A program made the translations under genes and the position numbers. The notes beneath the pieces are model-generated. The model ran no database searches. It saw only the letters and a program-made list of their open reading frames with translations, and had not been told where the DNA came from. Below, in pieces: positions 3,204 to 45,677 of a DNA stretch of 64,000 nt. Numbering within the stretch: position 1 is the first letter of the stretch; every line of letters begins with the position of its first letter. Source of the stretch: a virus; IMG/VR virus record IMGVR_UViG_3300037743_000151, positions 1 to 64,000 of that record. One strand, 5' to 3'.

Positions 3204-4084
3204 CAGAGCTGACCAGCAGGCTCACCGACCAGCAACTGAAGGTGCTGTACTCCGCACTCCACAACGACCGGGTGGGCCACAACCAAAAGGGGTTCGCCCA
3301 CGTCCAGCAGTGGGACGTGCGCCGCTTCCTCATCCGCGTCTTCGGGTTCGGCGGTTACGACACCGAGTTGGTATCGATCGACCTGATCCGCGAGATCGAG
3401 CACCCGCCGAGCAACCAGGGCGGCAAGCCCCGATGGACCGTCGCCTACCGCGTTCACCAGCGGCTGACCGTGAAGGACATCGCCGGGCGTCCGATCGCCA
3501 CCTTTGACGGCGTGGCCACGGGCGACGCGCAGAATCAACCGAGCCTCGGCGACGCGCACGACGGCGCCGTGAAGGAGGCCGACTCACAGTCGCTCAAGCG
3601 GGCCGCAGTCAATCTCGGCGACGCGTTCGGTTTGTCTCTCTATAACGGTGGCAAGACGGCTCCGGTCGTTCTCTGGTCGGCAGCGCACCCGCACCTCACG
3701 ATCAAGGGACCTGTCGCAGGCCAGGACGATACGAAGCCCCAGGACCCGCCAGTCGAGCCCGAGCCGGATGCGACACCGGACAGCTCAGACCCGGACCCGA
3801 CGCCCCCGGCCTCCGCTGCCGCCCTGGCGCAGCAGCCAGCGCCGTCTGCGCCCACCGCCGTCCCGGACCCGCCGCAGCAGCAGCGTCCCGGCGCGATGCC
3901 GGCCGCCGGACCGAACGAGCGGCAGGGCGCCCTTGACGCGATGTGGGGCGCCGCCCGCGCCGCCAACTTCGCCGACGGGCTGCCCGCCCAGTTCGAGTCG
4001 GCGTTCGGCCACGCCATCGAGCAGGGCACCGCCGCCGAGTTCCGGCAGGCCACCGATCTGATGCGCGGCTCCGTCGCCGCCTGA
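3200..4084 (+). CDS. Rad52/22-family single-strand annealing protein
   Basis: ATG at 3200 (ATGA overlap). The motif KEADSQSLKRAAVNLGDAFGLSLYNG matches the Rad52/22 annealase signature (A.KRA...fG..fG..LY). Pro/Ala-rich C-terminal tail. Confidence 0.75.
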   Translation: MTELTSRLTDQQLKVLYSALHNDRVGHNQKGFAHVQQWDVRRFLIRVFGFGGYDTELVSIDLIREIEHPPSNQGGKPRWTVAYRVHQRLTVKDIAGRPIATFDGVATGDAQNQPSLGDAHDGAVKEADSQSLKRAAVNLGDAFGLSLYNGGKTAPVVLWSAAHPHLTIKGPVAGQDDTKPQDPPVEPEPDATPDSSDPDPTPPASAAALAQQPAPSAPTAVPDPPQQQRPGAMPAAGPNERQGALDAMWGAARAANFADGLPAQFESAFGHAIEQGTAAEFRQATDLMRGSVAA

Positions 4085-4147: not shown

Positions 4148-4675
4148 ATGAACGTGAAAGAAGCAGCGGCTCGGGCCGCCGTCCTCGACACCCTCCACAA
4201 GGCCATCGGCGACGAGCTGAAGGCCGCCAAGCGCGACCTGGAGGACGGACTGCGCGCAGCCAAGGCGGAGACCGGAACCCAGAAGGTCACCATCAGCCTC
4301 GACGAGCAGCAGGACATCGGCACCGCCACTCTCGTCCAGCCGGCCGCCGCGGCCGTCGTCGCCGACGTCGAGAAGTTCAAGGCGTGGGTGATGGACCACT
4401 ACACGAGCGAGATCGAGCGGAAGTTCGTCACCGAGGTCCGCGCCTCGTTCACCGCCCGCCTGCTGAAGGAGATGACCGCCGCCGGGGTAGCGCAGTGGGC
4501 CGACCCGGAGACGGGTGAGATCCACGAAGTGCCGGGTGTGGAGATGCAGGGCCGGGCTGCGTACACGCGGATGACCGTGCCGGACGAGGGCAAGCAGGCA
4601 ATCGCGCAGGCGTGGCAGTCGGGCGCGCTCTCGTATCTGGTGCTTCCCCAGCTCACCGCCGGGGGTGCCCAGTGA
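4148..4675 (+). CDS. hypothetical protein
   Basis: ATG preceded by AGGAG RBS; 175 aa; sits between annealase and exonuclease. Confidence 0.65.
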   Translation: MNVKEAAARAAVLDTLHKAIGDELKAAKRDLEDGLRAAKAETGTQKVTISLDEQQDIGTATLVQPAAAAVVADVEKFKAWVMDHYTSEIERKFVTEVRASFTARLLKEMTAAGVAQWADPETGEIHEVPGVEMQGRAAYTRMTVPDEGKQAIAQAWQSGALSYLVLPQLTAGGAQ

Positions 4676-5400
4676 AGTTCTCCAACCTCCGCCGCAGCGG
4701 CTGGGACACGGAAACGACCGGCGTTCGAGTCGACGAAGCCCGCATCGTCACCGCGGCCATCGTCGTACGCGGCGGCAACCTGCCCGACCGAACCTTCTCG
4801 CACATCATCAACCCCGGCGTGCCGATCCCCCCCGAGGCGAGCGCCGTCCACGGCGTGACCAACGAGCGGGCCCAAGCCGAAGGCGCCGAACCCAAGGAAG
4901 CGCTGGAAGACATCGCGAGCAGGCTCACCGCGGCCCTGATCCACGGCATGCCGGTCGTCGCGTTCAACCAGTCCTTCGACTGGAGTGTCCTGCACTACGA
5001 GCTCGTCCGGTACGGCCTGCCCACCATGGCCGACCGGCTCGGCCGCGAGCCGTACACGCTGCTGGACCCGCACGTCATTGATCGGCAGTGCACGCCGCGG
5101 CTGCGTGGCAGCGGGCTCCGCAAGCTGAAGCCAACGTGCGAGCGGTATGGCGTTGCTCTGGACGACTGGCACACCGCAGAGGCGGACGCGCTCGCGGCGC
5201 TGCTGCTGGCCGACGCACAGTTCGACTACCACCCGCAGCTCGCCGACATGGAGCCGCAGCAGTTGTATGCGGCTCAGAGGGTGTGGAGGGCGGAGCAGCA
5301 GGCGTCCTTGCAGGAGTACCTGCGGCAGACAAAGCCGGAGGCGTACTGCGCTCCGGAGTGGCCGCTGATCGCTGTGGACAGGCAGGGGGACGGACAGTGA
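4672..5400 (+). CDS. DnaQ-like DEDDh 3'-5' exonuclease
   Basis: GTG at 4672 (GTGA overlap). Exo motifs: I WDTETTG, II VAFNQSFDWSVL, III HTAEADA. Confidence 0.8.
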   Translation: MKFSNLRRSGWDTETTGVRVDEARIVTAAIVVRGGNLPDRTFSHIINPGVPIPPEASAVHGVTNERAQAEGAEPKEALEDIASRLTAALIHGMPVVAFNQSFDWSVLHYELVRYGLPTMADRLGREPYTLLDPHVIDRQCTPRLRGSGLRKLKPTCERYGVALDDWHTAEADALAALLLADAQFDYHPQLADMEPQQLYAAQRVWRAEQQASLQEYLRQTKPEAYCAPEWPLIAVDRQGDGQ

Positions 5401-8128: not shown

Positions 8129-8165
8129 CCACCCCTCCCGGCGCCGCCCCAACAAGGAGAACGTG

Positions 8166-9638
8166 ATGAGTACGAGACTGACGGAACTGTCGCCAGACCA
8201 GGTGGCGGCTCTCGCCACTACCCGCGATAAATGGCTCGCCCACGGTCTCGCGACCGGCCCCGCCGACCGTGCGGAGGCGGAGGCGGGGGTGCGTGATGCG
8301 TATCGTGCTGCTGGTTTGGAGCCGCCGCAGACTGTGATCTGGCTTGACTCGCCGATGGCTGGCGCGATCGCTGCCTGGATGTTCACGACTGCTCGGGCTC
8401 AGGTCGGGGATCAGGTCGGGGCTCAGGTCCGGGCTCAGGTCTGGGCTCAGGTCCGGGATCAGGTCTGGGATCAGGTCTGGGATCAGGTCGGGGATCAGGT
8501 CTGGGCTCAGGTCGGGGATCAGGTCCGGGATCAGGTCTGGGATCAGGTCTGGGATCAGGTCGGGGATCAGGTCGGGGATCAGGTCGGGGCTCAGGTCCGG
8601 GCTCAGGTCCGGGCTCAGGTCGGGGATCAGGTCGGGGATCAGGTCCGGGATCAGGTCGGGGATCAGGTCTGGGCTCAGGTCCGGGATCAGGTCGGGGATC
8701 AGGTCTGGGCTCAGGTCGGGGATCAGGTCTGGGCTCAGGTCTGGGCTCAGGTCGGGGATCAGGTCCGGGATCAGGTCCGGGCTCAGGTCTGGGCTCAGGT
8801 CTGGGCTCAGGTCTGGGCTCAGGTCGGGGATCAGGTCCGGGCTCAGGTCGGGGATCAGGTCCGGGCTCAGGTCGGGGATCAGGTCGGGGATCAGGTCTGG
8901 GCTCAGGTCGGGGATCAGGTCCGGGCTCAGGTCGGGGATCAGGTCTGGGCTCAGGTCGGGGATCAGGTCGGGGATCAGGTCTACAAGGCCGTACCCGGAC
9001 AGCACGACGCCGGATGGCTCTCGTTCTACGACTACTTCCGCACCCACTGCACCATCCAAGAAGCCGACCGGCTCACCGGCATGATGCGCGTCTCCCAGTC
9101 CGCCGGCTGGTGGTGGCCCTTCCAGAACGCCGTCATCCTCACCGAACGTCCCACCAGCCTCCACCGCGACGGCCAAGGCCGCCTCCACAACGAGACCGGC
9201 CCCGCTCTCGCCTACCCCGACGGGTTCGCCATCTGGGCATGGCACGGCACCCGCGTGCCGCGCGACCTCATCGAAACCAACTGGAACCTCAAACAGATCT
9301 TCGACGAACCCAACGCGGAAATCCGCCGCTGCGCCATCGAAAAAATCGGCTGGGACCAGTTCATCCAAGAGTCCGGCCTACGCAAGGTGGCCTCCTGCCC
9401 CGACCCCGGGAACGCCCCCTACCACCTCGCCCTCTACGAGCTGCCCGAGCAGCTCGACAACCTCTACGACGAGCCAGCACGCATCCTCCTCGCCGTCAAC
9501 GGCAGCCCGGAACCCGACGGCGAACACCGCCGCTTCGGCCTGCCCGTCCCCGCACACCACACCGACCCCGTCGAAGCCGCAGCCGAAATGTACGGCTGGC
9601 CCGTGGCCGCCTACCAGCAGCTCGAACACCGCCGCTGA
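8166..9638 (+). CDS. DUF6745-like protein with central 49-unit tetrapeptide repeat
   Basis: ATG 8166 after AAGGAGA RBS (GTG 8163 also possible). Conserved N- and C-terminal domains flank ([D/A]QV[G/W/R])x49. The C-terminal WWWPF...ILTERP...HNETGPA pattern recalls DUF6745 (from memory). Confidence 0.75.
8397..8984 (+). repeat. 49 tandem 12-bp in-frame repeats, consensus G[A/C]T CAG GTC [G/T/C]GG
   Basis: Read directly from the sequence. Every unit has invariant CAGGTC and GG. Only unit positions 2 and 10 vary. The last unit ends TAC. Confidence 0.95.
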
Positions 9639-41336: not shown

Positions 41337-41585
41337 ATGAGCATCTGGAGAACGGTCGGCCACGACGGGCCGGAGGTCGTTGGGATCCCAGACGAGACGG
41401 ACGCCGTGCACTATCGAGGCGGCGGGGAGGCCACCGCCACCGTCGACGTCGCCGTGACCAGCATGCACGGCGGGGTGCGCCTCGGTATCGAGTTCGATGG
41501 CTCGACGAAGGATGTCCTCCTCGACCGGGAGAACGTGGCGCTGTTGCGTGACCGGCTGACGGTCGTACTGGAGGGTGAGTCGTGA
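41337..41585 (+). CDS. hypothetical protein
   Basis: ATG 41337 (GTG 41328 would give a GTGA overlap with the terminase stop); 82 aa. Confidence 0.5.
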   Translation: MSIWRTVGHDGPEVVGIPDETDAVHYRGGGEATATVDVAVTSMHGGVRLGIEFDGSTKDVLLDRENVALLRDRLTVVLEGES

Positions 41586-42016
41586 GTCTGTGGTTGCTGC
41601 TGCTCGTGATGGCGCTCGCGGTGTACCGGCTTACCCGCTTGGTCGTGGCTGACACGTTCCCGCCGGTGCTGTGGCTGCGTGACCGGCTTGTCGGTGGGTG
41701 GCGTGAGCCGACGATGAAGGAGCAGCATCACGATGCGTTCCCGACCGGGGAGGTCGAGGAGGGCTGCTTCAAGAGCATTCCAAACCTGGGCATGTTCGGG
41801 CTGCTCGACGGTGAGTTGCAGATTTACGGCCGCCGGTGGAAGTGGTCGCCGTTCTGGTTGGCTGATCTGTTGTCGTGTCCGTTTTGCGCGTCGGGGTGGA
41901 TTGCTGTCGGGGTGACGGCGGGTGTGTGGGCCACGGTCGGTCTGCCGGTGCCGCTGCTGGTGTGGCTGGCGGTGTGGGCGGTGGGCGGCCTGTTGGCGTC
42001 GCAGGAGTGGGCGTGA
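41582..42016 (+). CDS. DUF1360-like membrane protein
   Basis: GTGA overlap. VYRLTRLVVADTFPP ... LLSCPFCASGWIAV matches the DUF1360 pattern (from memory). Four hydrophobic helices. Confidence 0.6.
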   Translation: MSLWLLLLVMALAVYRLTRLVVADTFPPVLWLRDRLVGGWREPTMKEQHHDAFPTGEVEEGCFKSIPNLGMFGLLDGELQIYGRRWKWSPFWLADLLSCPFCASGWIAVGVTAGVWATVGLPVPLLVWLAVWAVGGLLASQEWA

Positions 42017-42099
42017 CGCCGGAACGCGGGCCGGAGACGGGCCCGTAGCATTCAGGGTGTAGGAGCCGGGCCTTCGGGTTCCGGGGTGGTGGCGCACAG

Positions 42100-42130
42100 G
42101 GGCCGTCCGCAGTGGGCATGCGGACGGCCC
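42100..42130. terminator. hairpin terminator (11-bp stem)
   Basis: GGGCCGTCCGC (42100-42110) pairs with GCGGACGGCCC (42120-42130). Confidence 0.6.
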
Positions 42131-42154
42131 TCGCTGCTGCTCGGGGTGTGGGAA

Positions 42155-42180
42155 GGGGCCGCCTCCGTAGAGACGGCCCC
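42155..42180 (-). other. hairpin of module A1
   Basis: GGGGCCG (42155-42161) pairs with CGGCCCC (42174-42180). It directly abuts the ACCAAGAAGAGCC box. Confidence 0.5.
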
Positions 42181-42233
42181 ACCAAGAAGAGCCACGCCAC
42201 GCCCTGCCTTGCCTCGCCCTGCCGAGCCATGCG
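42181..42233 (-). repeat. module A1: box ACCAAGAAGAGCC followed by GCC every 5 nt (G-rich sense on the minus strand)
   Basis: GCC at 42191, 196, 201, 206, 211, 216, 221 and 226 (8 of 8), then GCG at 42231. Confidence 0.85.
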
Positions 42234-42253
42234 CTGGTCAGCTTAACGGCGAA

Positions 42254-42275
42254 GGGCTCCACCGAAGTGGAGCCC
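42254..42275 (-). other. hairpin of module A2 (UUCG loop in minus-strand sense)
   Basis: GGGCTCCAC (42254-42262), loop CGAA, GTGGAGCCC (42267-42275). Confidence 0.6.
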
Positions 42276-42358
42276 ACCAAGAAGAGCCTTGCCATACCAC
42301 GCAATGCCGAGCCGAGCGCTGCCCAACCGAGCGCTGCCTTGCCATGACCAGCCAAGCG
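42276..42358 (-). repeat. module A2: box ACCAAGAAGAGCC followed by 15 phase-locked NNGCC units
   Basis: Phased triplets from 42286 to 42356: 8 are exact GCC and the rest differ at one base. Confidence 0.8.
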
Positions 42359-42394
42359 GAGGCTAGCCCGAGGGCTTCACAGTACCGCCAGAGC

Positions 42395-42450
42395 CGTCAT
42401 TCTGAATACATCTCTTCTTTCGGAGTGACACATGACGGTATATATTCGCG
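42395..42450. promoter_or_regulatory. AT-rich core between inverted arrays (candidate divergent promoters)
   Basis: CATTCTGAATACATCTCTTCTTTCGGAGTGACACATGACGGTATATATTCGCG is the most AT-rich stretch I noticed in the window. Possible leftward promoter: -35 TTCAGA (42406-42401) and -10 TACTGT (42384-42379). Confidence 0.35.
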
Positions 42451-42469
42451 TGGTGCCACCGGCACGCTC

Positions 42470-42582
42470 GGCGTGGCACTGCCCGGCAAGCTGAGGCATG
42501 GCATGGCCTGGCGGGGCACGGCGGGTCATGGCTAGTCAAGGCCAGGCGGGGTAAGGCACGGCGCGGCTCTTCTTGGCTTGGT
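42470..42582 (+). repeat. module A3: (GGCNN) array plus box GGCTCTTCTTGG (42565-42576), immediately upstream of the RBS of gene 42614
   Basis: Exact GGC at 16 of 23 positions spaced exactly 5 nt apart (42470...42580). Confidence 0.85.
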
Positions 42583-42613
42583 TCCCACCACCACACGGCA
42601 CGGAGGACACCGA

Positions 42614-43186
42614 ATGCAGTTCCGCATCACCATCACTGGCACCGCCGAACTCCTCATGCACAACGCCCGCTTGTCCAACCCCATTGACCCCGCAGCCAAA
42701 GCGATGAAGGCCGTCACCTCCAAGCGCGTCAAGACCGACGACGACCACGAGGAGTTGGCCCGCCTCGAACACCTCGGCTCGCTTTACTACGACCCCGAGA
42801 TCGGACCGTTCGTCCCCGGCCAGAACATCGAACGCGCTCTCGTCGACGCCGCCAAGGTCACCAAGTCCGGCGTCAAGGTCACACGCGGCGTGTTCATCTC
42901 CACCAACGTCAACCCCCTCGCCTACAAGGGGCCGCGCGACATCGACGGCCTGTGGGCAGACGAGAACTTCCGGCACATGGCATCCGTCAAGGTCCAGCAG
43001 AACCGCGTGATGCGCTGCCGCCCCATGTTCCGGACCTGGCGCACCGAGGCGGAAGGCACACTGGACACCCGAGTTCTGTCCCTCGAAGAACTCCAGGGCA
43101 TCGCGGACACGGCAGGAGCGATGATCGGTCTCGGTGACTACCGCCCCCGCTACGGCCGCTTCACTGCGGAGGTAACCAAGCTGTGA
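42614..43186 (+). CDS. hypothetical protein (190 aa) of the array-flanked cassette
   Basis: ATG 42614 after GGAGGA RBS. Native-looking GC-rich codon usage. The N-terminal beta-strand-like MQFRITITG and the C-terminal glycine-rich IGLGDYRPRYGRF weakly recall RAMP/RRM-fold proteins. No firm family. Confidence 0.6.
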   Translation: MQFRITITGTAELLMHNARLSNPIDPAAKAMKAVTSKRVKTDDDHEELARLEHLGSLYYDPEIGPFVPGQNIERALVDAAKVTKSGVKVTRGVFISTNVNPLAYKGPRDIDGLWADENFRHMASVKVQQNRVMRCRPMFRTWRTEAEGTLDTRVLSLEELQGIADTAGAMIGLGDYRPRYGRFTAEVTKL

Positions 43187-43695
43187 ACGGCGTCAAGACC
43201 CGCGTGGACGTCCTGTACGAGCTGTTCCAGCGTGCAGACCTAGTCACTTACGAGCAGGCCGCAGAAGCCCTTGGGCTCGACCCGATACAGGACCGGAAAG
43301 CCATCCGGGACACCATGGGACGCGTCAGAAGGAAGCTGCTCGCCAGGGATGGGCGGGCGCTCCGTTCCGTCCCAGACGTCGGCTACCGGATCGCTGAACC
43401 GAACGAGCACATCACCCTGTACCGCGAGCGTAAGAAGCGTGGGACAAATCAGCTCGTGACGGGTCGCGACGAGCTGAAAGGCACTGACCTTTCGAGCCTG
43501 ACGCAGGAGGGCCGGGATGCTGTCCTGGCGGAGAGTGTCGCGGCATCTCGGATCATCGACTTCATCGTGTCGACGGATCGTCGCTTGCGGAAGCAGGAGG
43601 CGAAGATCGATGAGATCAAGGGTGAAGTGACCCGCAACGCCGAGGAGTCTGCGGAGATCAAGAAACGCCTCACCCAGTTGGAACAGCCTGGGTAG
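43183..43695 (+). CDS. winged-helix (OmpR/PhoB-type-like) DNA-binding protein with C-terminal coiled coil
   Basis: GTG 43183 (GTGA overlap). VRRKLLARDGRALRSVPDVGYRIAEP resembles the OmpR-type wing. The C-terminal 60 aa are heptad-like. It uses codons rare in high-GC actinomycetes (CTA, ATA, AGA, AGG, AAT, AGT). Confidence 0.6.
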   Translation: MNGVKTRVDVLYELFQRADLVTYEQAAEALGLDPIQDRKAIRDTMGRVRRKLLARDGRALRSVPDVGYRIAEPNEHITLYRERKKRGTNQLVTGRDELKGTDLSSLTQEGRDAVLAESVAASRIIDFIVSTDRRLRKQEAKIDEIKGEVTRNAEESAEIKKRLTQLEQPG

Positions 43696-43702
43696 AGGTT
43701 GC

Positions 43703-43794
43703 GGCCGGACATGGCGTGACGTGTCCTGGCACGGTGCGGCCGGACATGGCGGGGCAAGGCCGGGCGGGGCGCGGCGCGGCGGGGCTTCTCTGGG
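43703..43794 (+). repeat. module A4: (GGCNN) array plus box GGCTTCTCTGGG (43783-43794)
   Basis: Exact GGC at 12 of 17 phased positions (43703...43783). Internal 16-nt direct repeat GCGGCCGGACATGGCG at 43701 and 43736. Confidence 0.85.
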
Positions 43795-43795
43795 T

Positions 43796-43821
43796 GGGCC
43801 CCCACCTTCGGGTGGGGGCCC
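43796..43821 (+). terminator. 11-bp GC hairpin with UUCG tetraloop following array A4, 75 nt upstream of the portal start
   Basis: GGGCCCCCACC (43796-43806), loop TTCG, GGTGGGGGCCC (43811-43821), then CCCTTCGCC as in module A2. Confidence 0.65.
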
Positions 43822-43895
43822 TTCGCCATGCCCGGAATGATCTTCTCGGCCGCGCTCTTACCCTCCCCTCGCAGACCGCGAACAGGGAGACCCGG

Positions 43896-45677
43896 ATGGC
43901 CTGGTGGCACACCTTCACCCGACGCGGCACACCCACGCCCACACCCCTCCCCACCCACACCGAACAGCAACCCAACGCAATCACCGCCGCCGCAGCACCC
44001 GTCTCCAGCCCCCGCACCGACCTCATCCGCAACACCGACGGCTGGCAAGAAGAAGTCTGGGGATTCCACGACACCCTCGGCGAATTCCGGTACGCCACCG
44101 ACTGGGAAGCCAAACGCTTCTCCCGCGTCCGCCTCTACGCCGCCAAGCTGGAGCCAGGGGCCGACGAGCCCGTACGCGCCAAGGCCGGAACCGCCGTCGA
44201 CCTCATGACGGCGTTCGCTGGTGGCCCCGCCGGACAAGCGCAGATCATGGGCGGCCTCGCCACGCAACTACGGGTCCCCGGCGAGGGCTACCTCATCGTC
44301 GAGAGCGTGAGCGGTATCGAGCAGTGGTCGGTGCGCTCCATCGACGAAGTCCGTGCCGCACGCCAGCGGTACGAGGTCATCGACGAGAACAGCCCGCAGT
44401 CCGGCAACAACTGGCGCCCCCTCGCCCCCGACTCGATGGCACCGATCCGGGTATGGCGGCCGAACAAGCGCTGGCACCACATCGCCGACAGCCCCACCCG
44501 CGCCGCGCGTTCCACGATGCGGGAACTGGAGTTGGTGAACCGGCACATCGTTGCCCAGTACCTGTCGCGGCTCGCGTCCGCCGGTGTCGTCATGTTCCCG
44601 TCGGAGGTCACCTTCCCGCAGAAGGAGGAGTTCGCCGACGCGCCGGACCCGTTTGTCGCCGAGTGGATCGAGAACGCGAGGGTCGCGATCGATCAGCCGG
44701 GCACCGCCAGTGCCGTGATCCCGATGCCGATCAAGGTGCCTTCCGAGCTCGTCGAAAAGATCAAGCATCTCGACTTCACCCTGAAGATCGACGAGAAGAT
44801 CATCGAGAAGCGGGACAGCGCCATCAAGCGCCTCGCCTCCCAGCTCAACGTGCCCGCCGAAGTCCTACTCGGCATGGGCGATTTGAACCACTGGAACGCC
44901 TGGAGCAGCGACGAAACCAGCCTCAAAGTCGACGTCGCCCCCGACGCCGAACTCATCTGCCAGGCCATGACCACCGGCTACCTCCAGCCCCGCCTCAAAG
45001 CATCCGGCGTCGAAGACTGGGCGAACTGGGTCATCTGGTACGACATGTCAGAACTGACCCTGCGCCCCGACCGGTCAGACGACGCCATCGCCCTGTACGA
45101 CCGCCTGGAACTCAACGGCGCAGCCCTCCGCCGCGAAACCGGATTCAACGAAGCCGACAAGCCGACCAACGAGGAACTCAAAGAGCAGGCCCTCAAGGTC
45201 ATCATCCACACCCTGCCGTCCGGCGCCGGTAGCGCGCTCACCGAACTCATCGGCGAGCAGGTCACCATCGCCGCGACCGCACCCATCGCCCCCGGCGAAC
45301 AACCCGAGCCGGAGCCCCCGCCGGAAGACCGCACACCACCCGACCCCGACATTGCACGCGAGGCGACCGCGCAAGCCCGCGAGGACCGCATGGTTGCGCA
45401 GGCCCGCGAGCTGCACGCCGTCCGGTTCACGGTCGGCCGGCCTACGGAGCTGCTGCACCCGGCGGCGTGTTCGCAGCACGCCTACTCCTGCCCGTTCACG
45501 CACGCCGCATTGAAGCTCGCCGACCTGCCGAGGCCCGGGACGTCGGGTGTGTATGAGGCGCGCCTGGATCCGTTCGGCCGGTTCACGATCGGCCGGCATG
45601 CGCCGCTGATGGACACGTCCGGCTTCTTCTCGACGATGACTCGGAGCAGTAATGGATTCGCTCGCAGCCGCGGCTGA
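43896..45677 (+). CDS. portal protein
   Basis: ATG 43896 after AGGGAGA RBS; 593 aa. Assigned from position (after terminase, before the MuF/protease gene), size and acidic/helical composition typical of actinophage portals. Confidence 0.7.
   Translation: MAWWHTFTRRGTPTPTPLPTHTEQQPNAITAAAAPVSSPRTDLIRNTDGWQEEVWGFHDTLGEFRYATDWEAKRFSRVRLYAAKLEPGADEPVRAKAGTAVDLMTAFAGGPAGQAQIMGGLATQLRVPGEGYLIVESVSGIEQWSVRSIDEVRAARQRYEVIDENSPQSGNNWRPLAPDSMAPIRVWRPNKRWHHIADSPTRAARSTMRELELVNRHIVAQYLSRLASAGVVMFPSEVTFPQKEEFADAPDPFVAEWIENARVAIDQPGTASAVIPMPIKVPSELVEKIKHLDFTLKIDEKIIEKRDSAIKRLASQLNVPAEVLLGMGDLNHWNAWSSDETSLKVDVAPDAELICQAMTTGYLQPRLKASGVEDWANWVIWYDMSELTLRPDRSDDAIALYDRLELNGAALRRETGFNEADKPTNEELKEQALKVIIHTLPSGAGSALTELIGEQVTIAATAPIAPGEQPEPEPPPEDRTPPDPDIAREATAQAREDRMVAQARELHAVRFTVGRPTELLHPAACSQHAYSCPFTHAALKLADLPRPGTSGVYEARLDPFGRFTIGRHAPLMDTSGFFSTMTRSSNGFARSRG

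What the first reader, a model, noticed from the sequence alone, without database searches (positions are those of the whole stretch)
42614..43695. Two-gene cassette enclosed by the arrays: an unknown 190-aa protein plus a winged-helix/coiled-coil protein with foreign-looking codon usage
Terminase and portal genes are normally adjacent. Here they are separated by about 2.5 kb. The two translationally coupled genes (GTGA overlap) sit exactly between array A3 (ending 20 nt before the RBS) and array A4 (starting 8 nt after the stop).

Gene 1 matches no family I recognise. Its beta-strand-like N-terminus (MQFRITITGTAELL), the internal VPGQNIERALVDAAK, and the C-terminal glycine-rich IGLGDYRPRYGRF are weakly reminiscent of RAMP/RRM-fold RNA-binding proteins (glycine-rich loop).

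Gene 2 has an OmpR-type wing (VRRKLL...VPDVGYRIAEP) and a heptad-repeat C-terminus that would favour oligomerisation. It uses CTA, ATA, AGA, AGG, AAT and AGT codons that are unusual for this genome, which suggests horizontal acquisition.

Together with the arrays, this looks like a self-contained module of binding protein(s) plus cognate repeated sites. Possible roles include late-gene or packaging control, superinfection exclusion, or anti-defence.
Basis: partly seen in the sequence, partly recalled or inferred. Interest (0 to 1): 0.7.

Follow-up and report, generated by a model that had tools for sequence, protein, structure and literature searches.

The report
VIPR RNA-guided system in Streptomyces phage
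The two genes and the GGC repeat arrays around them form a VIPR system, a recently described phage-borne relative of CRISPR in which a small protein uses repeat-encoded guide RNAs to silence competing phages, so this is a new example of a known system.

Summary
Genes 42614-43186 and 43183-43695 overlap by GTGA and lie between four 5-nt-phased GGY/NN arrays. My detector finds no other such array on either strand of the 64-kb window.

Gene 1 is a Vipr protein, a minimal Cas7-like RAMP. It matches PDB 36pp "SUSP1 Vipr protein" at E 1.8e-46, the RNA-contact residues are conserved, and its AF2 model hits Csm3, Cmr4 and type VII Cas7. Gene 2 is the winged-helix accessory protein Vap (hhalign 94.5% to the Felixounavirus partner).

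The arrays are guide-RNA (vrRNA) genes, each a run of GGYNN units followed by a conserved tail hairpin. Metagenome contigs encoding a 100%-identical Vipr carry unrelated NN dinucleotides. Of 80 viral loci with Vipr homologues, 74 have such arrays nearby.

This matches the VIPR systems described in two 2026 bioRxiv preprints, probably type II. The idea of DNA-site arrays for packaging or late-gene control is not supported, and the codon-usage argument is weak.

Local peculiarities are two vrRNA genes on the opposite strand, UNCG-hairpin tails, and a position between terminase and portal. No natural target was found. This is a new member of a known kind, of moderate interest.

The parts
42100..42130 (.). 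Perfect 12-bp GC hairpin between the DUF1360 gene and the leftward vrRNAs. It is a probable terminator; its function is inferred.
   Evidence: Inverted repeat I7, 100% complementary. It is conserved in L004 and L008.
42150..42193 (-). 3' tail of vrRNA A1': GGCTCTTCTTGGTGG followed by a hairpin with a UACG loop.
   Evidence: The tail is conserved in L004, and 6 of the 14 hairpin pairs show compensatory changes among 7 tails.
42194..42233 (-). Guide region of vrRNA A1': 7 canonical GGCNN units plus one degenerate unit.
42248..42288 (-). 3' tail of vrRNA A2': GGCTCTTCTTGGTGG followed by a cUUCGg hairpin and CCTTCGCC.
42289..42353 (-). Guide region of vrRNA A2': 13 GGYNN units, 9 of them canonical.
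42395..42450 (.). The only AT-rich stretch in the locus, conserved in L004 and L008. It is a putative divergent promoter region; this is inferred, and the sigma-70 consensus scan found no site.
42451..42494 (+). Conserved leader of the rightward transcript, with a GTGCCAC/GTGGCAC hairpin. It is invariant between loci whose guides differ.
42495..42564 (+). Guide region of vrRNA A3: 14 GGYNN units. NN = AT AT CT GG AC GG AT TA AA CA GG AA AC GC.
42565..42613 (+). Conserved tail of vrRNA A3 (GGCTCTTCTTGGCTTGG...), which also serves as the 5' UTR and RBS of vipr.
42614..43186 (+). vipr: a 190-aa minimal RAMP (Cas7-like) protein.
   Evidence: PDB 36pp 'SUSP1 Vipr protein' at E 1.8e-46 (profile) and 3.4e-34 (single sequence). 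AF2 model pLDDT 86. Foldseek top hits are Cas7, Csm3 and Cmr4. phrog_4652 at E 7e-60.
43183..43695 (+). vap: a 170-aa winged-helix protein with a long helical hairpin, the VIPR accessory protein (vap1-like).
   Evidence: hhalign 94.5%, E 7.6e-8 against wV8 gp094. AF2 model. A homologue lies directly downstream of vipr in about 47 of 80 loci.
43703..43782 (+). Guide region of vrRNA A4: 16 GGYNN units, 12 of them canonical.
43783..43827 (+). 3' tail of vrRNA A4: GGCTTCTCTGGGTGG followed by a cUUCGg hairpin and CCTTCGCC.

Best explanation
The region 42150-43827 is a complete VIPR (Viral Interference Programmable Repeat) locus carried by a Streptomyces-type phage, most like type II.

Shown here:
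- Gene 1 is a Vipr protein, a minimal Cas7-like RAMP.
- Gene 2 is its winged-helix accessory protein Vap.
- The four arrays are vrRNA genes. Each has a run of 7-16 GGYNN units followed by a conserved tail (GGCTYTTCWTGGTGG plus a UNCG-capped hairpin).
- Two vrRNA genes are on the vipr strand (one upstream, one downstream). Two lie divergently on the other strand.

Inferred by homology to the SUSP1 and P. fulva systems:
- Vipr protomers polymerise along the vrRNA, one per pentamer. They sequester each GGY and present the NN dinucleotides.
- The filament binds double-stranded DNA whose sequence reads NNx NNx... (one skipped base, usually the codon wobble position), and blocks transcription there.
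- Vap enhances the effect.

Inferred function: the phage uses the guides to silence competing phages, prophages or satellites in the same host. The guide content turns over quickly while the protein stays constant.
For: 1. Homology. A profile of gene 1 hits PDB 36pp_D 'SUSP1 Vipr protein' at E 1.8e-46 over residues 4-187. The single sequence scores 3.4e-34.

2. Contact residues. The residues that the structural preprint names as contacting RNA or DNA (H17, K33, R138, D177, W178, R179) align to H16, K32, R136, D175, Y176 and R177. H16, R136, D175 and R177 are invariant and K32 is nearly invariant across 42 homologues; Y176 is W in the family consensus.

3. Independent fold evidence. The AF2 model (pLDDT 86, pTM 0.80) gives only Cas7-family RAMPs as top Foldseek hits: type VII Cas7 at E 3.6e-5, plus Csm3 and Cmr4.

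4. Arrays fit the published vrRNA definition. That definition is 9-16 YNNGG repeats with GGY conserved, NN hypervariable and an invariable structured 3' tail. Four arrays are present, 40 of 50 units are GGY, and no other array is detected in the window.

5. Hypervariable guides. Contigs L004-L007 encode a 100%-identical Vipr (96.5% nucleotide identity). They have the same leader, promoter region and tails. In-phase NN identity is only 25-32% (chance level), while GGY identity is 72-81%.

6. Tail structure. The tail hairpin has 14 pairs, 6 of which show compensatory changes.

7. Co-occurrence. Of 80 IMG/VR loci with Vipr homologues, 74 have GGYNN arrays within -1.5/+2.2 kb. Array density is 0.67 per kb near vipr against 0.0105 per kb further away. 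The same holds in phages LittleE, MakoManhole, Trine and wV8.

8. Vap. Gene 2 is homologous to the gene downstream of vipr in Felixounavirus wV8 (hhalign 94.5%, E 7.6e-8). It is predicted to be a winged-helix protein, as the preprint reports for type II vap.

9. No self-target. [quoted passage not shown]
Against: - No natural target was found for any of the four guides, so the biological role is inferred only.
- Ten of the 50 units are degenerate (GTC, GAC, CGC, TGC).
- A1' has only 7-8 units, below the published 9-16 range.
- The consensus scan found no sigma-70-type promoter or intrinsic terminator, and expression is untested.
- The tail is a simple hairpin, not the pseudoknot described for the SUSP1 clade.
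- The opposite-strand arrays are an uncommon layout: 5 of 215 arrays in the 80 loci.
- The type assignment could not be checked against the preprint's tree, because no supplementary files were held.
- The mechanism rests on two preprints that are not yet peer reviewed.
Confidence: 0.87

Rival explanations
1. One reading: the arrays are double-stranded DNA sites bound by the winged-helix protein and/or gene 1. The module would control late transcription or DNA packaging at the terminase-portal junction, like a pac/cos region with a TerS-like protein.
For: The cassette lies between TerL and portal. Gene 2 has a winged helix followed by long helices, an architecture also seen in small terminases. 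A1 and A3 form a 50-nt, 78% inverted repeat.
Against: - Homologous cassettes with arrays sit in unrelated contexts: LittleE tail genes, Trine replication genes, wV8 next to DNA ligase. Relatives with 77-93% Vipr identity lack the TerL/portal context.
- Array orientation is tied to the vipr strand in 210 of 215 cases. That is expected for transcripts, not for duplex binding sites.
- The NN positions are scrambled between phages with an identical protein. A conserved binding site would not tolerate this.
- The homologue is solved as an RNA-bound filament.
- The A1/A3 inverted repeat is explained by two paralogous vrRNA genes in opposite orientation.
Confidence: 0.04
2. A VIPR-derived module that no longer targets foreign DNA. 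It could be a decaying remnant, or a system repurposed to regulate the phage's own genes or the host.
For: No external target was found in any collection. Twenty percent of units are degenerate. A1' is short.
Against: All key residues are conserved and Vipr is under strong purifying selection, with 65-93% identity across hundreds of homologues. Guides turn over while leader and tails are kept, which implies ongoing selection on guide content. No self-target reaches 80% NN match in the 64-kb window. The searches required exact seeds in collections that sample Streptomyces phages poorly, so absence of a hit is weak evidence.
Confidence: 0.07
3. A TRAP-like or sponge-like RNP: a ring or filament protein binding GGC triplets spaced by 2 nt, either to regulate translation of the downstream genes or to titrate a host factor, with no DNA targeting.
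For: The 5-nt triplet-plus-spacer periodicity resembles the TRAP (G/U)AG NN sites (from my own knowledge of TRAP). A3 lies in the 5' UTR of vipr.
Against: Gene 1 is a RAMP homologous to a protein shown to use such RNAs as DNA guides. Hypervariable NN positions would be unnecessary for a sponge or attenuator. Three of the four arrays are not in a 5' UTR.
Confidence: 0.02

Closest known systems
Type II VIPR systems (Escherichia phage SUSP1, Pseudomonas fulva prophage); bioRxiv 10.64898/2026.04.26.720920 and 10.64898/2026.04.26.720927; PDB 36pp
   Same: - Homologous Vipr: 38% identity to the Felixounavirus protein, E 1.8e-46 to the solved chain, with contact residues conserved.
- A two-gene vipr-vap operon.
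- A vap1-like winged-helix partner.
- vrRNA genes both upstream and downstream of the operon.
- GGY/NN pentamers with hypervariable NN and a conserved structured tail.
- No self-target.
- Carried by a phage.
   Different: - Y is almost always C here (GGC), whereas it is GGT in the low-GC wV8/SUSP1-type locus.
- Two vrRNA genes lie on the opposite strand, probably transcribed from a shared divergent promoter region.
- The tail is a UNCG-capped hairpin rather than the reported pseudoknot.
- The host is an actinobacterium (Streptomyces). The preprint's main text does not mention Streptomyces, Mycobacter- or Actino-.
- The cassette sits inside the structural module between terminase and portal.
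- The targets are unknown.
Cas7-family RAMPs of class 1 CRISPR-Cas (Csm3, Cmr4, type VII Cas7)
   Same: RRM core, glycine-rich loop and thumb fold. Foldseek E 3.6e-5 to 1e-3, TM about 0.5. They also form a helical backbone along a guide RNA.
   Different: Sequence identity is only 10-15%. The window has no CRISPR repeat-spacer array. Nothing resembling other cas genes was seen among the window ORFs I examined, but I did not scan the whole window for them. The RNA periodicity is 5 nt with three bases sequestered, not 6 nt with one base flipped. The system is not a CRISPR-Cas member.
Cassettes annotated only as 'hypothetical protein' in actinophages: Mycobacterium phage LittleE gp34/gp33, Gordonia phage MakoManhole gp78/gp77, Gordonia phage Trine gp41
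   Same: Vipr identity is 54-57%. A vap homologue lies directly downstream in LittleE and MakoManhole. GGYNN arrays flank the genes.
   Different: Their arrays are all on the vipr strand. Their vrRNA tails are tRNA-like minihelices (T-arm plus acceptor stem) instead of UNCG hairpins. Their genomic positions differ.
TRAP (trp RNA-binding attenuation protein) with (G/U)AG-NN repeats
   Same: A protein oligomer reads a triplet repeated with a 2-3-nt spacer on RNA. This is an analogy only, from my own knowledge.
   Different: The fold is unrelated, and TRAP has no guide function. I considered it before the homology result and rejected it.

Membership tests
VIPR system | A Vipr protein: a minimal RAMP (RRM core, G-loop, thumb) homologous to characterised Vipr proteins | tested here: met
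   PDB 36pp 'SUSP1 Vipr protein' at E 1.8e-46 and 3.4e-34. The AF2 model hits Cas7, Csm3 and Cmr4.
VIPR system | Conservation of the residues that bind GGY and the target backbone (SUSP1 H17, K33, R138, D177, W178, R179) | tested here: met
   These align to H16, K32, R136, D175, Y176 (W in the family consensus) and R177. H16, R136, D175 and R177 are invariant and K32 nearly invariant in alignment A1. The pyrimidine-pocket residues E71 and M72 are Q70 and N71 here.
VIPR system | Tandem YNNGG (GGY/NN) repeats, at least 4 units, flanking vipr | tested here: met
   Four arrays of 7-16 units. 40 of 50 units are GGY and 50 of 50 have a pyrimidine at position 3. No other array is detected in the 64-kb window on either strand.
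VIPR system | GGY conserved while NN is hypervariable between related loci | tested here: met
   L004 has a 100%-identical Vipr. In-phase GGY identity is 0.72-0.81 and NN identity is 0.25-0.32.
VIPR system | An invariable, structured 3' tail after each repeat tract | tested here: met
   A conserved GGCTYTTCWTGGTGG plus a hairpin. Of 14 pairs, 6 show compensatory changes. The tail class differs from the SUSP1 pseudoknot. The upstream vrRNA (A3) has the conserved sequence but no hairpin.
VIPR system | An adjacent vap accessory gene (a DNA-binding protein in types II, VI and VII) | tested here: met
   hhalign 94.5%, E 7.6e-8 to the gene downstream of vipr in wV8. A winged-helix model. Homologues lie directly downstream of vipr in about 47 of 80 loci.
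VIPR system | vrRNAs are expressed as ~100-nt RNAs and co-purify with Vipr | not testable with these tools
   This needs small-RNA sequencing and a pull-down. The consensus promoter scan found nothing. A conserved AT-rich region at 42395-42450 is the only candidate.
VIPR system | Guides match natural DNA targets under the 1-nt-skip rule (at least 80% of NN positions) | tested here: inconclusive
   No credible target was found in IMG/VR, the GTDB representative genomes or JGI metagenomes using exact seeds. The best hits are judged to be chance.
VIPR system | No self-targeting on the source contig | tested here: met
   The best 1-nt-skip match in the window is 22/38, 20/32, 16/26 and 11/16 for the four guides.
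VIPR type II specifically | Placement in the type II clade of the Vipr phylogeny | not tested
   The preprint's tree and tables were not available. The inference rests only on 38-42% identity to the Felixounavirus and Pseudomonas phage Viprs and on vap1 homology.
CRISPR-Cas | A repeat-spacer array plus cas genes (adaptation and effector modules) | tested here: not met
   No repeats of 20-40 nt with spacers were found. The two genes gave no PADLOC or Pfam cas hits. Only a single RAMP is present.
Small terminase / pac site | A conserved position next to TerL, and arrays that function as packaging sites | tested here: not met
   The cassette occurs in unrelated positions in other phages, and close relatives lack the TerL/portal context.

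The most novel reading that the evidence does not exclude
The actinophage branch of VIPR may use vrRNA architectures and maturation routes that are not described in the main text of the preprints.

In this lineage, guide genes are transcribed divergently from a shared promoter region and end in UNCG-capped hairpins. In sister loci (LittleE, MakoManhole, L042/L043, L084-L086 and others; 23 of 83 loci) each vrRNA is followed by a tRNA-like T-arm-plus-acceptor minihelix. Host RNase P and RNase Z could therefore cut the arrays into single guides.

In addition, vap and the guide set are exchanged independently of vipr: Vipr is 100% identical in L004 while Vap is 61% identical. This would make the locus a three-part modular system.
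Probability: 0.4. Interest if true: 0.55.

Novelty: new member of a known kind. Interest (0 to 1): 0.35.

Why it matters
VIPR is a newly described RNA-guided DNA-recognition system proposed to predate CRISPR. This locus shows it in a high-GC Streptomyces-type phage, with a GGC-only repeat, divergent guide genes and a simple hairpin tail.

The comparison with contigs encoding an identical protein gives a clear natural example of rapid guide replacement on a fixed scaffold. That helps define which parts of a vrRNA are scaffold and which are programmable. It could also support actinobacterial tools based on a 20-kDa effector.

Practically, it re-annotates a widespread group of 'hypothetical proteins' (phrog_4652, LittleE gp34/gp33 and others) and warns that some annotated ORFs overlie vrRNA arrays. 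It does not reveal a new kind of system.

Tried and rejected
1. Database searches that gave no useful family for the two genes:
- Pfam, NCBIfam and PADLOC on both proteins gave nothing useful.
- Rfam on the locus and on three related loci gave no family.
- ARAGORN found no tRNA in the window.
- Megablast of the region against phage genomes gave no match.

2. Before the homology result I considered a TRAP-like ring RNP, a protein-sponge RNA, G-quadruplex DNA, a pac site with TerS, and a Cas6-like processing enzyme. All were dropped once the PDB Vipr hit and the preprints explained the periodicity.

3. Target prediction with the 1-nt-skip rule:
- Self-scan of the window was negative.
- Exact 11-unit patterns of A3, A4 and A2' in IMG/VR gave 0 hits.
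- A 9-unit A3 seed in GTDB genomes gave 31 hits. None is actinobacterial and none extends beyond chance.
- A 10-unit A3 seed in JGI metagenomes gave 0 hits.
- An 11-unit A4 seed gave one hit, lying out of frame in a bacterial mraZ gene at 26/32 overall. I judge it chance.
- 8-unit seeds of A3 and A2' in IMG/VR gave only low-GC contigs with no extension.
- A2' matches 22/26 positions, in frame, in the 49%-GC viral contig L101. This beats 300 of 300 shuffled guides (maximum 21). I rejected it as biologically implausible for a Streptomyces phage and marginal after testing five guides.

4. The sigma-70 promoter and terminator scan found nothing in 41950-43950.

5. The codon-usage foreignness of gene 2 is not significant.

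6. The preprint's supplementary tables, needed for type assignment, were not held.
Full report
**Observation**

The window is a 68.6%-GC phage genome. It encodes a recombinase, RuvC, a replication initiator, TerL, portal and a major head protein.

Gene 1 (42614-43186, 190 aa) and gene 2 (43183-43695, 170 aa) overlap by GTGA. They lie in the 2.56-kb gap between TerL (ends 41331) and portal (starts 43896).

A phase-aware scan finds 5-nt-periodic GGC/GCC arrays at four places only, all in this gap. A stricter GGY detector run on both strands of the 64 kb finds the same four and nothing else.

Read on their own strand, each array is a run of GGYNN units followed by GGCTYTTCWTGGTGG. In three of the four this is followed by a GC hairpin capped by UUCG or UACG.
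- A3 (+, about 42495-42564, 14 units) lies upstream of gene 1.
- A4 (+, 43703-43782, 16 units) begins 8 nt after the stop codon of gene 2.
- A2' (42353->42289, 13 units) and A1' (42228->42194, 7-8 units) are on the minus strand and point away from gene 1.

The 50-nt A1/A3 'inverted repeat' is simply two paralogous units in opposite orientation.

**What the proteins are**

Gene 1 has no Pfam, NCBIfam or PADLOC family. It belongs to phrog_4652 (E 7e-60, unknown function) and to a large, well-conserved family annotated everywhere as hypothetical (849 proteins at E <= 1e-5).

A profile of 42 members hits one solved structure, PDB 36pp chain D, 'SUSP1 Vipr protein', at E 1.8e-46 over nearly the full length. 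The single sequence scores 3.4e-34.

That name led to two 2026 bioRxiv preprints from the Doudna laboratory describing VIPR systems. According to these preprints:
- A ~20-kDa RAMP protein (Vipr) polymerises on vrRNAs made of 9-16 YNNGG repeats plus an invariable structured tail.
- It sequesters each GGY and presents the NN dinucleotides.
- It binds dsDNA that matches the NNs with one skipped base per unit, usually the codon wobble base.
- It represses transcription.
- Natural guides target competing phages, prophages and satellites.
- A second gene, vap, is a DNA-binding protein in types II, VI and VII.

The residues reported to contact G1, G2, Y3 and the target backbone (H17, K33, R138, D177, W178, R179) align with H16, K32, R136, D175, Y176 and R177 of gene 1. 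H16, R136, D175 and R177 are invariant and K32 is nearly invariant in the family; Y176 is W in the family consensus.

As an independent check, an AF2 model (pLDDT 86, pTM 0.80) retrieves only Cas7-family RAMPs from a PDB library that predates the Vipr entry (type VII Cas7, Csm3, Cmr4; E 3.6e-5 to 1e-3).

Gene 2 has only a sub-threshold Trans_reg_C hit. Its AF2 model (pLDDT 89.9) is a winged helix (residues 7-70) followed by two long helices. Foldseek gives only weak matches to winged-helix regulators such as MntR, MarR, ArsR and Sso10a (E >= 0.012).

The gene 2 family includes LittleE gp33 and MakoManhole gp77. By profile comparison it is homologous to the gene that follows vipr in Felixounavirus wV8 (94.5%, E 7.6e-8). 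A pairwise BLASTP alignment of gene 2 with wV8 gp094 covers the shared VGYR..EP motif. It is therefore a vap1-like accessory protein.

**The arrays as guide-RNA genes**

Three lines of evidence were obtained here, independently of the preprints.

1. Metagenome contigs L004-L007 encode a 100%-identical Vipr (96.5% nucleotide identity) in the same synteny (DUF1360 - arrays - vipr - vap - array - portal). Their AT-rich inter-array region, leader and tails are conserved. The repeat tracts differ in length and content. In phase from the tail, GGY positions are 72-81% identical and NN positions 25-32% identical, which is chance level.

2. The tail hairpin is supported by covariation. Of 14 pairs, 6 show compensatory changes among seven tails.

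3. Among 80 IMG/VR loci encoding Vipr homologues, 74 have GGYNN arrays within -1.5/+2.2 kb of the gene. Density is 0.67 per kb near the gene against 0.0105 per kb in the outer flanks. Of 215 arrays, 210 are on the vipr strand.

The same association is seen in cultured phages. LittleE has genes 34/33 inserted antisense between the tape-measure and minor-tail genes. It also holds in MakoManhole, Trine and wV8, where the units are GGT rather than GGC.

**Mechanism and what is inferred**

Shown here: homology, conserved contact residues, the repeat code, hypervariable NN, structured tails, the vap partner, and absence of self-targets under the 1-nt-skip rule (best 58-62% of NN).

Inferred from the SUSP1 and P. 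fulva work: filament assembly, gapped R-loop or triplex binding, and transcriptional silencing of competitors.

Also inferred: divergent transcription from the conserved AT-rich stretch at 42395-42450. The consensus promoter scan found no canonical site there.

The NN positions of A3, A2' and A1' are 57-69% A+T in a genome that is 31% A+T (counted from the parse). This fits positions that carry target information rather than genome-typical sequence.

**Targets**

- 11-unit exact patterns in IMG/VR gave no hits.
- A 9-unit A3 seed in GTDB genomes gave 31 hits, about the number expected by chance. None was actinobacterial and none extended.
- Of the two metagenome scans, one was empty. The other gave a single out-of-frame hit in a bacterial mraZ gene.
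- 8-unit seeds in IMG/VR hit only low-GC contigs with no extension.
- A 22/26 in-frame match of A2' in a 49%-GC viral contig exceeded 300 of 300 shuffled guides. It is implausible for this host range and marginal after multiple testing.

The biological role (inter-phage competition) therefore rests on analogy.

**What differs from the described systems**

- Y is C in nearly every unit.
- Two guide genes are on the opposite strand, which is rare: 5 of 215 arrays. This layout is shared by L004-L008. L042 also has one opposite-strand array.
- The tails are UNCG hairpins rather than a pseudoknot.
- A1' is shorter than the reported 9-16 units.
- The cassette sits inside the structural module in this lineage only. 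Vipr relatives at 77-93% identity have other neighbours, so the cassette moves between phages.
- Vap is only 61% identical in L004 despite the identical Vipr. Vap and the guides are therefore exchanged independently of vipr.

**Verdict**

The finding is real and the module reading is right. It is explained by a system published in 2026, so it is a new member, probably type II, of a known kind.

Interest is moderate to low for the locus itself. It is somewhat higher for the side observations on divergent arrays, alternative tails and modular exchange.

Caveats:
- The mechanism comes from preprints.
- The type assignment could not be checked.
- Expression and targets are untested.

Noticed in passing
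L001 1650-1700 and 2990-3150; L002 (LittleE) 3750-3790 and 5200-5400; also L042, L043, L053, L061, L063, L084-L086 and others: In 23 of 83 Vipr loci the vrRNA repeat tracts are followed by tRNA-like minihelices: a 5-bp T-stem, a TTCGANT loop and a 7-bp acceptor-like stem. An example is GCTCGGATGGTCGCAGGTGGGGTTCGACTCCCCACCCGAGC. Neither strand of the window has one. ARAGORN and Rfam do not call them. The main text of the VIPR preprint never mentions tRNA. They could recruit RNase P or RNase Z to cut the arrays into single guides.
   Followed up: partly
L002 3557-3946 (LittleE gene 35) and L003 4591-5394 (Trine gene 40): These annotated 'hypothetical protein' CDSs overlap GGYNN arrays (LittleE arrays at 3669-3738 and 3794-3863; Trine array at 4634-4693). 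They may be mis-annotations of vrRNA genes.
   Followed up: no
L004 1238-2319 compared with window 42614-43695: There is a sharp mosaic boundary. Vipr is 100% identical in protein (96.5% nucleotide identity), but the overlapping downstream vap is only 61% identical in protein. This suggests recombinational exchange of vap alleles at the vipr/vap junction.
   Followed up: partly
window 8163-9638 (+), tandem repeat 8395-8981: A 491-aa protein with a C-terminal DUF6745 domain (E 7e-44) contains about 49 tandem copies of a 12-nt unit (GGGATCAGGTCG, 89% matches). These encode a four-residue repeat, (G/W/R)(D/A)QV, spanning about 196 aa. This is an unusual tetrapeptide-repeat protein.
   Followed up: partly
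window 41582-42016 (+): A DUF1360 membrane protein (phrog_781) lies between TerL and the VIPR locus. It is conserved in that position in L004 and L008 but absent from VIPR loci of other phages, so it is a neighbour rather than a component.
   Followed up: partly
L121 (phage wV8) 2250-2307 and 3643-3700: The record annotates 58-nt direct repeats 'DR_4' flanking the vipr-vap pair. These coincide with the conserved tails of the GGT-type vrRNAs, so the repeats were noticed by the annotators in 2009 without a function being assigned.
   Followed up: no
window 43701-43775: The A4 guide region contains an internal 35-nt duplication: GCGGCCGGACATGGCG appears at 43701 and 43736 (TRF period 35, 2.1 copies, 77% matches). 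This may reflect growth of the guide by duplication, or two staggered guides.
   Followed up: no
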